Assembly (NCBI GenBank): GCA_964016885.1
Contig: OZ024740.1
Coordinates: 125,736,001 to 125,800,000, forward strand
DNA from: Eledone cirrhosa
Lineage: Eukaryota
Direction: 5' to 3'
DNA length: 64,000 nt
Shown: positions 48,971 to 52,234 of the stretch, one piece after another
Layout of the letters: each line of letters begins with the position of its first letter
Numbering within the stretch: position 1 is the first letter of the stretch
The notes under the pieces: generated by a model
Told to the model about the DNA's origin: nothing
Seen by the model: only the letters and a program-made list of their open reading frames with translations
Databases searched by the model: none
Program-made: the position numbers and the translations under genes

Positions 48971-48971
<1 letters not shown>

Positions 48972-51900
48972 GTCCTGATGAATTCTAACAAGAATGAAAC
49001 GCGTAGATTACTTCCCTTGCTTTTATCGAGAATCTAATTGTAATACGTGACGTATTCTATTCTATAGCGATTATGTCTTCAAAATGTTTATTATAAACAT
49101 ACAGAATATTTTCGAATATTCTATGTCTATATTCACATATATATCGCTATTTCAGAGCATTTATTCCAATTTCTAATTTCTGCCGGACCGGCAACCGCTC
49201 TTTCAAACCAGTTCCTGTACACAGCTAAGTATTCTATAAGTCTCTAGCTGTGTCATTCTCGATAAAAGCACTGGATATGTAGTCCTGATGAATTCTAACA
49301 AGAATGAAACGCGTAGATTACTTCCCTTGCTTTTATCGAGAATCTAATTGTAATACGTGACGTATTCTATTCTATAGCGATTAGGTCTTCAAAATGTTTA
49401 TTATAAACATACAGAATATTTTCGAATATTCTATGTCTATATTCACATATATATCGCTATTTCAGAGCATTTATTCCAATTTCTAATTTCTGCCGGACCG
49501 GCAACCGCTCTTTCAAACCAGTTCCTGTACACAGCTAAGTATTCTATAAGTCTCTAGCTGTGTCATTCTCGATAAAAGCACTGGATATGTAGTCCTGATG
49601 AATTCTAACAAGAATTAAACGCGTAGATTACTTCCCTTGCTTTTATCGAGAATCTAATTGTAATACGTGACGTATTCTATTCTATAGCGATTAGGTCTTC
49701 AAAATGTTTATTATAAACATACAGAATATTTTCGAATATTCTATGTCTATATTCACATATATATCGCTATTTCAGAGCATTTATTCCAATTTCTAATTTC
49801 TGCCGGACCGGCAACCGCTCTTTCAAACCAGTTCCTGTACACAGCTAAGTATTCTATAAGTCTCTAGCTGTGTCATTCTCGATAAAAGCACTGGATATGT
49901 AGTCCTGATGAATTCTAACAAGAATGAAACGCGTAGATTACTTCCCTTGCTTTTATCGAGAATCTAATTGTAATACGTGACGTATTCTATTCTATAGCGA
50001 TTAGGTCTTCAAAATGTTTATTATAAACATACAGAATATTTTCGAATATTCTATGTCTATATTCACATATATATCGCTATTTCAGAGCATTTATTCCAAT
50101 TTCTAATTTCTGCCGGACCGGCAACCGCTCTTTCAAACCAGTTCCTGTACACAGCTAAGTATTCTATAAGTCTCTAGCTGTGTCATTCTCGATAAAAGCA
50201 CTGGATATGTAGTCCTGATGAATTCTAACAAGAATGAAACGCGTAGATTACTTCCCTTGCTTTTATCGAGAATCTAATTGTAATACGTGACGTATTCTAT
50301 TCTATAGCGATTAGGTCTTCAAAATGTTTATTATAAACATACAGAATATTTTCGAATATTCTATGTCTATATTCACATATATATCGCTATTTCAGAGCAT
50401 TTATTCCAATTTCTAATTTCTGCCGGACCGGCAACCGCTCTTTCAAACCAGTTCCTGTACACAGCTAAGTATTCTATAAGTCTCTAGCTGTGTCATTCTC
50501 GATAAAAGCACTGGATATGTAGTCCTGATGAATTCTAACAAGAATGAAACGCGTAGATTACTTCCCTTGCTTTTATCGAGAATCTAATTGTAATACGTGA
50601 CGTATTCTATTCTATAGCGATTAGGTCTTCAAAATGTTTATTATAAACATACAGAATATTTTCGAATATTCTATGTCTATATTCACATATATATCGCTAT
50701 TTCAGAGCATTTATTCCAATTTCTAATTTCTGCCGGACCGGCAACCGCTCTTTCAAACCAGTTCCTGTACACAGCTAAGTATTCTATAAGTCTCTAGCTG
50801 TGTCATTCTCGATAAAAGCACTGGATATGTAGTCCTGATGAATTCTAACAAGAATGAAACGCGTAGATTACTTCCCTTGCTTTTATCGAGAATCTAATTG
50901 TAATACGTGACGTATTCTATTCTATAGCGATTAGGTCTTCAAAATGTTTATTATAAACATACAGAATATTTTCGAATATTCTATGTCTATATTCACATAT
51001 ATATCGCTATTTCAGAGCATTTATTCCAATTTCTAATTTCTGCCGGACCGTAACCGCTCTTTCAAACCAGTTCCTGTACACAGCTAAGTATTCTATAAGT
51101 CTCTAGCTGTGTCATTCTCGATAAAAGCACTGGATATGTAGTCCTGATGAATTCTAACAAGAATTAAACGCGTAGATTACTTCCCTTGCTTTTATCGAGA
51201 ATCTAATTGTAATACGTGACGTATTCTATTCTATAGCGATTAGGTCTTCAAAATGTTTATTATAAACATACAGAATATTTTCGAATATTCTATGTCTATA
51301 TTCACATATATATCGCTATTTCAGAGCATTTATTCCAATTTCTAATTTCTGCCGGACCGGCAACCGCTCTTTCAAACCAGTTCCTGTACACAGCTAAGTA
51401 TTCTATAAGTCTCTAGCTGTGTCATTCTCGATAAAAGCACTGGATATGTAGTCCTGATGAATTCTAACAAGAATGAAACGCGTAGATTACTTCCCTTGCT
51501 TTTATCGAGAATCTAATTGTAATACGTGACGTATTCTATTCTATAGCGATTAGGTCTTCAAAATGTTTATTATAAACATACAGAATATTTTCGAATATTC
51601 TATGTCTATATTCACATATATATCGCTATTTCAGAGCATTTATTCCAATTTCTAATTTCTGCCGGACCGGCAACCGCTCTTTCAAACCAGTTCCTGTACA
51701 CAGCTAAGTATTCTATAAGTCTCTAGCTGTGTCATTCTCGATAAAAGCACTGGATATGTAGTCCTGATGAATTCTAACAAGAATGAAACGCGTAGATTAC
51801 TTCCCTTGCTTTTATCGAGAATCTAATTGTAATACGTGACGTATTCTATTCTATAGCGATTAGGTCTTCAAAATGTTTATTATAAACATACAGAATATTT

Positions 51901-52234
51901 TCGAATATTCTATGTCTATATTCACATATATATCGCTATTTCAGAGCATTTATTCCAATTTCTAATTTCTGCCGGACCGGCAACCGCTCTTTCAAACCAG
52001 TTCCTGTACACAGCTAAGTATTCTATAAGTCTCTAGCTGTGTCATTCTCGATAAAAGCACTGGATATGTAGTCCTGATGAATTCTAACAAGAATGAAACG
52101 CGTAGATTACTTCCCTTGCTTTTATCGAGAATCTAATTGTAATACGTGACGTATTCTATTCTATAGCGATTAGGTCTTCAAAATGTTTATTATAAACATA
52201 CAGAATATTTTCGAATATTCTATGTCTATATTCA
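48971..52234 (+). repeat. Tandem array of 10.5 x 310-bp units, one HHR per unit (non-LTR retrozyme-like)
   Basis: Units start at 48971, 49281, 49591, 49901, 50211, 50521, 50831, 51140, 51450, 51760 and 52070, and are almost identical. Confidence 0.95.
49255..49343 (+). ncRNA. Type I HHR of the array (representative of 11 copies)
   Basis: attctcgataaaagca ctggatat gtagtc CTGATGA attct aaca agaat GAAA cgcg TA gattac ttccct tgcttttatcgagaat. Predicted cut after 49315. Confidence 0.9.

What the first reader, a model, noticed from the sequence alone, without database searches (positions are those of the whole stretch)
48971..52234. Array of 10.5 x 310-bp hammerhead units: candidate circular-RNA (retrozyme) replicon written into (AT)n
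Seen: 11 HHR cores at 310-bp spacing. Each has a 6-bp stem I extended by a perfect 16-bp helix, a 5-bp stem II, palindromic stem III ACGCGT and a GUA site. The rest of the unit is non-coding and paired: atgttta/taaacat 49084-49100, agaatatt-TTCG-aatattct 49103-49122, atagcgat/atcgctat and acacagcta/tagctgtgt. Known: metazoan non-LTR retrozymes are tandem monomers with type I HHRs that give circular RNAs, and minimal PLE-type HHRs with palindromic stem III cleave as dimers. Inference: transcription releases 310-nt monomers that circularise, and this many near-identical copies starting mid-ribozyme fits rolling-circle reverse transcription. I cannot tell whether this family has been described.
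Basis: partly seen in the sequence, partly recalled or inferred. Interest (0 to 1): 0.9.

Follow-up and report, generated by a model that had tools for sequence, protein, structure and literature searches.

The report
Hammerhead retrozyme copied by Penelope machinery
This is one of more than a thousand young insertions of a 310-base non-coding repeat that carries a predicted self-cutting RNA motif; the kind is known from other animals, and the fixed ends and uniform repeats of its copies show that a single RNA molecule, likely a circle, was probably copied round and round into AT-repeat DNA by a borrowed Penelope-type enzyme.

Summary
The array is real: 10.53 units of 310 bp, 11 type I hammerhead cores, two of them mutated. 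It belongs to a family of about 15,000 units in over 1,000 dispersed insertions in (AT)n. Most insertions are two head-to-head arrays ending at two fixed sites 35 nt apart, the Penelope 'tail'. The window copy is a minority one-armed case. Both arms share one haplotype (53 of 55; chance 0.095). Variants fixed in whole insertions avoid damaging the ribozyme (1 of 13, against 32 of 42 single-unit variants) and are rich in sense-strand A-to-G changes. Best reading: a non-LTR retrozyme whose single, probably circular RNA is copied by twin-primed rolling-circle reverse transcription by a Penelope-like protein in trans. Cleavage, circles and the helper are not shown. The intact Penelope beside the array has an 88-nt tail and no similarity, so it is probably not the helper. 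The class is known and this route was proposed in print; the footprint evidence was not in the papers I read. This scan noted the same family and reading on other DNA of this genome.

The parts
48971..52234 (+). One-armed retrozyme insertion: 10.53 head-to-tail units of 310 bp. The 5' break is at unit position 275 and the 3' end at the fixed short site (unit position 130; unit position 1 = base after the predicted cut).
49279..49321 (+). Type I hammerhead (example, second core): stem I 49279-49284 with 49316-49321, core from 49285, stem II, palindromic helix III, predicted cut after 49315. Other predicted cuts follow 49005, 49625, 49935, 50245, 50555, 50865, 51174, 51484, 51794 and 52104.
   Evidence: covariation in sister families
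49255..49343 (+). 16-bp extension helix (49255-49270 with 49328-49343) closing the ribozyme domain
49616..49616 (+). G12-to-T change in a core (also at 51165); these two ribozymes are predicted inactive
49756..49790 (+). The 35-nt tail (unit positions 131-165, shown in one internal unit). It lies between the two fixed sites at which genomic arms end, the inferred reverse-transcription start sites.
47583..48970 (.). (AT)n target, left flank; joined to the 5' break by a 2-8 nt microhomology
52235..52288 (.). (AT)n target, right flank
52289..56251 (+). Separate insertion of an intact Hydra-type Penelope-like element: ORF 52671-55136 (821 aa), own hammerhead at 52468-52527, short inverted arm 52289-52433, 88-nt tail. 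Probably not the helper.
47426..47606 (.). Short two-armed copy of an older sister retrozyme family that ends at the homologous short and long sites

Best explanation
The array is one insertion of a young, abundant, non-coding retrozyme whose 310-nt RNA is predicted to cut itself at its hammerheads and likely closes into a circle, which a Penelope-like reverse transcriptase/endonuclease probably copies in trans into (AT)n DNA. SHOWN: dispersion and copy number, (AT)n targets, two head-to-head arms, two fixed outer ends 35 nt apart, scattered inner ends, one haplotype per insertion, conservation of the ribozyme domain, and an A-to-G excess on the RNA strand. INFERRED: (1) arrays are transcribed. 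(2) Neighbouring hammerheads pair through the ACGCGU palindrome and cut as a dimer, while a lone monomer cannot, which would keep a circle closed. (3) Monomers are ligated. (4) The helper cuts both strands of (AT)n, and both 3' ends prime cDNA on the same RNA, at positions 130 and 165. (5) Each enzyme goes round several times (median 3-5 turns, up to 27). (6) The two cDNA ends join head to head by microhomology. In the window copy the long-site arm is absent; it either had zero length or was lost.
For: 14,783 exact internal unit matches, 995 long-end and 1,298 short-end junctions to (AT)n; reversed controls 0. Of 97 elements in 91 stretches, 82 have one short-site and one long-site arm, 7 are one-armed, 8 are cut by an edge or complex. 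Less biased subsets: 8 of 9 loci picked by ribozyme sequence are two-armed, and 18 of 20 picked by the long end alone have a short-site partner. A 30-40 bp tail and an inverted arm are PLE hallmarks (PMC8557442, PMC3846280). In vitro the tail lies between two RT start sites, and both DNA strands are cut and extended (PMC11167929). Arms agree in haplotype in 53 of 55, chance 0.095. There are 29 haplotypes in 86 elements, with 2.8 differences per unit between elements and 0.16 within. No junction is shared among 80 elements; 3 of 160 inner ends lie near the cut site (5.2 expected); only 2 of 74 single-unit variants are mirrored between arms. Damaging changes in the ribozyme domain: 1 of 13 fixed against 32 of 42 single-unit (p = 1.5e-5); rest of unit 6 of 20 against 32 of 94 (p = 0.8); without A>G 1 of 8 against 31 of 39 (p = 7e-4). 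A>G is 14 of 36 fixed events against 8 of 118 single-unit substitutions, and 14 A>G against 3 T>C. In 16 sister-family units, 22 of 69 pairs change on both sides, and the core 3-8 pair is C-G in 5 and U-A in 11.
Against: No RNA data were obtained: cleavage, transcription and circles are unshown. In the 2026 preprint only 1 of 9 predicted retrozyme dimers cleaved in vitro, and in PMC11167929 hammerhead cleavage was not needed for PLE insertion in vitro. No helper with matching sequence was found among seven PLE families examined. L054 has the outer two ribozymes of both arms from another haplotype, and L067 has one mirrored variant; both fit a linear multimer better than a monomer circle. In L098 one arm switches haplotype. 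Matching arms could also come from two RNAs of one source locus. Most loci were chosen by their end patterns and all lie on three contigs, nearly all on C1. The fixed/damaging classes rest on one predicted fold, and A>G direction on a minimum spanning tree.
Confidence: 0.68

Rival explanations
1. Same PLE twin priming, but the template is an uncut linear multimeric transcript of an existing array; the ribozyme serves something else or acts only occasionally.
For: L054 and L067 show variants mirrored at the same depth in both arms. HHR cleavage was dispensable for PAc insertion in vitro (PMC11167929).
Against: It gives no way to fix a new change in every unit, yet 19 of 29 haplotypes are private to one element. 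Only 2 of 74 testable variants are mirrored, and no inner junction is shared among 80 elements. Fixed A>G changes recur at the same sites on several backgrounds (276 four times).
Confidence: 0.14
2. The template is one cut linear monomer, and the enzyme jumps from its 5' end back to its 3' end again and again: rolling-circle in effect, with no covalent circle.
For: Explains one haplotype per insertion equally well. Stem I holds the two ends of the cut monomer together. Extra bases two positions after the cut site are fixed in 6 elements.
Against: Inner ends do not pile up at the cut site (3 of 160, 5.2 expected). Unit junctions within arrays are exact in nearly all of about 870 units.
Confidence: 0.1
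3. One arm is reverse-transcribed and the other is made by fold-back self-priming on the cDNA (or on an antisense RNA), as proposed for inverted PLE arms.
For: Gives matching arms; junctions show microhomology (36 of 59 overlap by 2 nt or more, 18% by chance). Self-priming is proposed in PMC3846280 (passage).
Against: Neither arm is regularly the longer (35 against 45), the two inner break points are unrelated (offset uniform, p = 0.99), and mirrored variants align from the outer ends, not from the junction.
Confidence: 0.05
4. A DNA-level satellite (unequal crossing-over or circular DNA) or an assembly artefact; the hammerhead is a relic.
For: A few arrays show local duplication of variants (window units 5 apart; L046, L047), so some DNA-level exchange does occur.
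Against: More than 1,000 dispersed insertions with two base-precise ends, element-specific haplotypes, strand-biased A>G changes and conservation confined to the ribozyme domain.
Confidence: 0.03

Closest known systems
Metazoan non-LTR retrozymes (Cervera and de la Pena 2020, PMC7229834, parts 2-4 of 6 read; coral, mussel, axolotl Rtz331/Rtz353; newt satellite 2)
   Same: Non-coding tandem units of 150-450 bp, under 50% GC, one type I HHR each, no LTR. Helix III has the weak stem and palindromic loop of axolotl HHR_Amex1, and the commonest haplotype has a U.U at the base of stem II like HHR_Amex2. The paper proposes that a PLE RT copies the circle into tandem cDNA.
   Different: The text read describes neither two head-to-head arms, nor fixed ends with a tail, nor (AT)n targeting, nor per-insertion haplotypes. 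Cleavage and circles are shown there and not here. Its supplement (Fig. S9, the model) was not seen.
Retrozymes as non-autonomous PLE derivatives (Li, Clavereau, Pollet 2026, bioRxiv 10.64898/2026.07.22.740005, parts 1-3 of 5 read)
   Same: Links retrozymes to PLEs by co-occurrence and by pLTR homology; similar unit lengths.
   Different: It favours local tandem amplification of a pLTR, or hijacking, without insertion anatomy, and covers no mollusc. Here no pLTR parent was found, and each insertion arrives already multimeric.
Penelope-like elements: tail and inverted arm (PMC11167929 parts 1-2 of 4; PMC3846280 and PMC8557442 passages)
   Same: Head-to-head inverted arm, 30-40 bp tail at one end, AT-rich targets, two RT start sites with both strands extended.
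   Different: No ORF; both arms hold many units, where PLE inverted arms are usually a truncated part of one unit.
Non-autonomous Chlamys elements such as MRC1 (PMC8557442, passage)
   Same: Non-coding, multicopy head-to-tail insertions moved by a PLE.
   Different: Green algae; 3' similarity to their autonomous partner is known; Chlamys elements mostly lack a canonical hammerhead.

Membership tests
Metazoan non-LTR retrozyme | Tandem units of about 150-450 bp with one type I hammerhead each | tested here: met
   310-bp period, 11 cores; covarying stems and core pair in sister families
Metazoan non-LTR retrozyme | Non-coding, GC under 50%, no LTR structure | tested here: met
   Longest stop-to-stop frame within the array 59 aa; GC 34%; whole elements are pure unit arrays. 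PBS/PPT motifs were not searched for.
Metazoan non-LTR retrozyme | Dispersed, multicopy, mobile | tested here: met
   14,783 internal units and about 1,000-1,300 ends of each kind
Metazoan non-LTR retrozyme | RNA self-cleaves, as monomer or dimer | not testable with these tools
   Indirect only: dimer fold favoured; fixed variants spare the ribozyme domain
Metazoan non-LTR retrozyme | Expressed as linear and circular RNA | not testable with these tools
   No raw RNA reads could be laid; see Tried and rejected
PLE-mobilised non-autonomous element | Head-to-head inverted arm | tested here: met
   82 of 97 elements overall; 8 of 9 and 18 of 20 in the less biased sets. The window copy itself has one arm.
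PLE-mobilised non-autonomous element | 30-40 bp tail at one end | tested here: met
   Long end at 165 in 84 of 89 (163-170 in all), short end at 126-139 with the break at 130 where resolvable: 35 nt
PLE-mobilised non-autonomous element | Sequence shared with the pLTR of an autonomous partner | tested here: inconclusive
   No blastn similarity to seven PLE families examined. One RT/GIY-YIG family has a 36-37 nt tail, but the tail sequences are not alike (2529 of 5000 shuffles score as well). Many families were not examined.
Minimal PLE-type hammerhead (min-HHR of PMC4209133) | Helix II 7-8 bp, helix I 4-5 bp, no helix III | tested here: not met
   Helix I 6 bp, helix II 4-5 bp, palindromic helix III: the canonical metazoan type
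Viroid-like RNA replicon | RNA-to-RNA replication, usually with ribozymes in both strands | tested here: inconclusive
   No CTGANGA...GAAA motif on the minus strand of the array; replication itself not testable
Hydra-clade PLE (neighbouring ORF 52671-55136) | RW motif, DKT, CxCX5C linker, C-terminal endonuclease, (TA)n target, HHR in pLTR | tested here: met
   Motifs read by eye in the translation against section 11 of PMC8557442; no Pfam, NCBIfam or PDB match; no tree built

The most novel reading that the evidence does not exclude
These insertions record the whole Penelope integration cycle. A dimeric RT/endonuclease cuts both strands of (AT)n, and its two subunits chase each other round one ribozyme-made, A-to-I-edited RNA circle from two start sites. 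This one mechanism would produce the tandem, inverted and tail structures of all endonuclease-bearing PLEs, autonomous ones included. In the neighbouring autonomous family, 22 of 51 within-locus pLTR pairs are identical against 3.5% between loci. It would also give PLE hammerheads their long-sought job.
Probability: 0.4. Interest if true: 0.8.

Novelty: new variant of a known kind. Interest (0 to 1): 0.55.

Why it matters
How animal retrozymes enter the genome, what PLE hammerheads are for, and how PLE tandem, inverted and tail structures form are all stated as open in the papers read (PMC7229834, PMC8557442, PMC11167929, the 2026 preprint). A young family with over 1,000 insertions, a 310-nt template and two base-precise start sites makes these questions testable in a tube (circle against linear RNA, a (TA)n target, a PLE protein). 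It would also be a natural model of rolling-circle reverse transcription into a chromosome.

Tried and rejected
EXPRESSION: the look-up of sequencing runs listed 6 holders in 4 studies; no RNA holder listed. Four runs were laid, all contigs. Three hold the unit as one 340-nt contig (310+30; 0, 0 and 1 differences). Their kind is unknown and tandem DNA gives the same contig, so I draw nothing from this.

DNA SEARCH: the search of the own genome with the unit returned nothing, because common words are skipped; exact patterns were used instead.

HELPER HUNT:
- Neighbouring 821-aa family: at least 150 copies at 98-100%, tail 88 nt, no similarity.
- 832-aa family: tail about 164 nt.
- 781-aa and 778-aa families: tails about 108 and 127 nt.
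- L032 family: older, no similarity.
- PLE at window 17.3-20.0 kb: tail about 57 nt.
- L093 family: tail 36-37 nt, (TA)n-targeted, copies 92-97% alike, tail similarity not above chance. It is kept only as a weak lead by tail length.

ROWS DROPPED: 72 of 219 raw single-unit calls were dropped before the tests: all of L106 and L108 (junction alignment artefacts) and the L054 and L098 haplotype blocks. The core-only test was not significant (0 of 33 against 9 of 161, p = 0.36). The junction overlap count may be inflated, because arm ends were extended with mismatches allowed. 'Start mid-ribozyme' was rejected as evidence. The PLE-W comparison includes mis-anchored L156 pairs, so its within-locus mean is not usable; only the zero counts are quoted.

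LITERATURE: searches for prior description were. None listed a paper on this family or on two-armed retrozyme insertions; the library lacks most subscription papers. Activity of U3-A8 hammerheads is recalled (one search found 0 papers). The ADAR link rests on recall and a search listing. Supplements of PMC7229834 and of the preprint were not seen and could bear on novelty.

Full report
OBSERVATION. The repeat is as described: period 310, 10.6 copies, 99% matches. There are eleven hammerhead cores, spaced 310 nine times and 309 once, and 7 of 10 full units are identical. The array spans 48971-52234 (10.53 units) between (AT)n tracts. I number the unit from the base after the predicted cut (49626 = 1). 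The monomer folds far better than shuffles (z = -4.43, 0 of 100). Two cores have G12 changed to T (49616, 51165), and the first core is incomplete. The motif has a 6-bp helix I with one G.U, a 5-bp helix II and a palindromic helix III. This is the canonical metazoan type I form of PMC4209133 (passages), not its minimal form. Rfam gives only a sub-threshold HH9 match. Two copies fold into a double hammerhead at -18.1 kcal/mol, their minimum-energy structure, while the active monomer fold costs +0.7. A tandem stretch of the window also pairs the two palindromes in its minimum-energy fold. Dimer cleavage is therefore predicted, not shown.

THE FAMILY. The genome is 3.0 Gb. That it is a cephalopod comes from earlier scan notes and recall and was not tested. 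It holds 2,528 exact copies of this 43-nt ribozyme and 14,783 exact copies of an internal 36-mer. There are 995 junctions of position 165 to (AT)n and 1,298 junctions of position 130/139 to (AT)n; all reversed controls were 0. I analysed 91 stretches holding 97 elements: 82 are two arrays head to head, one ending at the short site and one at the long site, 5 have a short-site arm only, 2 a long-site arm only, and 8 are cut by an edge or complex. Most stretches were chosen by their ends, so two subsets matter more. Of 9 loci picked by the ribozyme alone, 8 are two-armed. Of 20 picked by the long end alone, 18 have a short-site partner, 1 is cut off and 1 has none. The long end is at 165 in 84 of 89 arms. 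The short end is blurred by a CATATATAT stretch, but falls at 130 where it can be resolved. The window copy is one-armed; L094 shows an intermediate with a partner arm of about 11 nt. In 80 clean elements, median arms are 988 and 1,428 bp and the longest 8,459 bp. Neither arm is regularly longer (35 against 45), and no inner junction is shared. Of 59 junctions without inserted bases, 36 overlap by 2 nt or more (18% by chance); 21 have inserted bases.

WHY PENELOPE. An inverted 5'-truncated arm and a 30-40 bp tail at one end are described as PLE hallmarks not seen for ordinary non-LTR elements (PMC8557442 passages; PMC3846280 passages). For the anole element PAc, purified protein cuts and extends both strands of AT-rich DNA and starts at two internal sites that bound the tail; it is predicted to be a dimer (PMC11167929 parts 1-2). 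The 35-nt offset and opposed arms match this. The autonomous PLEs of this genome show the same two-arm, two-end layout with family-specific tails.

ONE TEMPLATE PER INSERTION. Among 86 elements of three or more units there are 29 haplotypes, 19 private to one element, each uniform along its arms. Elements differ by 2.8 changes per unit, while units within an element differ by 0.16 (136 events in 868 units after dropping 72 of 219 raw calls). Where both arms have two or more units, 53 of 55 agree (chance 0.095). Only 2 of 74 testable single-unit variants are mirrored in the other arm, so arrays are not copies of mosaic source arrays. Inner ends avoid no part of the unit and do not pile up at the cut site (3 of 160, 5.2 expected; uniformity p = 0.045), as expected of a template without a 5' end. 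Against this: in L054 the outer two ribozymes of both arms are of another haplotype, L067 has one mirrored variant, and one arm of L098 switches haplotype. A minority of events thus used multimers or switched template. Matching arms could also come from two RNAs of one source.

RNA AND RIBOZYME SIGNALS. Changes fixed across whole elements spare the ribozyme and its extension helix: 1 of 13 is damaging, against 32 of 42 single-unit changes (p = 1.5e-5). In the rest of the unit there is no such contrast (6 of 20 against 32 of 94). Fixed changes fall at N7, in loop 2, or keep pairs. The core alone is underpowered (p = 0.36). Following a lead from earlier scan notes I tested for editing. A>G makes up 14 of 36 fixed events on a spanning tree against 8 of 118 single-unit substitutions (p = 1.3e-5), with 14 A>G to 3 T>C on the RNA strand (p = 0.003) and position 276 changed four times. 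This fits A-to-I editing of the template (ADAR biology recalled). Because A>G keeps G.U pairs I repeated the ribozyme test without it: 1 of 8 against 31 of 39, p = 7e-4. Older sister families share the tail region and ends (560 long-end junctions). In an alignment of 16 units, 96% of cells pair, 22 of 69 pairs change on both sides, slid controls reach at most 10, and the core 3-8 pair is C-G in 5 and U-A in 11. The sequences are related, so these counts are not independent events, and the structure was derived from the same alignment.

THE HELPER. An intact 821-aa PLE lies 54 bp to the right. Its motifs match the Hydra clade, and at least 150 copies are 98-100% identical. But its tail is 88 nt, its hammerhead differs, and blastn finds no likeness to the unit; it reads as an independent insertion into the same (AT)n. 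Six further families gave no match. One has a 36-37 nt tail without significant sequence likeness. The helper is not identified.

COMPARISON AND NOVELTY. The element meets every sequence-level feature of metazoan non-LTR retrozymes (PMC7229834). That paper and the 2026 preprint propose PLE mobilisation, the first through a circle, without insertion anatomy. Searches listed no paper on this family or on two-armed retrozyme insertions. My reading was written down before I opened the scan's notes. Those notes report the same 310-nt family and the same reading at other loci; they are unchecked and are not independent support.

VERDICT. This is a real, young retrozyme of a known class, in a two-armed PLE-footprinted form, with good indirect evidence for single-molecule rolling-circle copying (0.68). 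The chemistry, the circle and the helper remain to be shown. Interest 0.55.

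Noticed in passing
window 52289-56251; L153-L172: Very active Hydra-type PLE (821 aa, at least 150 near-identical copies) with two-armed insertions, arms often longer than one unit and an 88-nt tail; within-locus pLTR copies are identical far more often than between loci. 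No Pfam, NCBIfam or PDB match.
   Followed up: partly
window 47426-47606; L173-L212: A clade of older 310-330 nt sister retrozymes with the same ends; many have a U3-A8 core instead of C3-G8.
   Followed up: partly
window 62968-63030 (+) and 57350-57482 (-); L093, L277: Another hammerhead family (tail about 70 nt) whose core and stem II nearly match the commonest haplotype of the 310-nt family, while the sister families have other stems II: possibly a swapped ribozyme module.
   Followed up: partly
L041, L045, L070, L071, L076: Haplotypes with one extra C or T two bases after the predicted cut site, fixed in all units: perhaps a ligation or RT scar.
   Followed up: no
L054; L098; L095: Haplotype switch at the same depth in both arms (L054) or in one arm (L098); L095 has a 272-nt GC-rich foreign insert at the junction and an A>G variant in units 0, 2 and 6.
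   Followed up: partly
window 17290-20020: Two-armed truncated PLE of another clade (RYVDD RT motif) with hammerheads at 17546 (-) and 19703 (+) and a tail of about 57 nt.
   Followed up: partly
window 11811-14087 (-): Frameshifted Hydra-type PLE, 41-46% identical to the 821-aa protein; a young 781-aa relative exists elsewhere.
   Followed up: partly
window 46850-47430, with copies at 39695-40516 and 8420-8843: A further hairpin repeat family in (AT)n with a hammerhead-like motif at 47155 (-).
   Followed up: no
L315-L334: RT/GIY-YIG PLE family targeting (TA)n with a 36-37 nt tail that overlaps the ORF start and an atypical hammerhead-like stretch.
   Followed up: partly
window 32026-32758: About four tandem 175-180 bp copies of a SINE-like repeat (identity as a SINE is recalled, not tested).
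   Followed up: no
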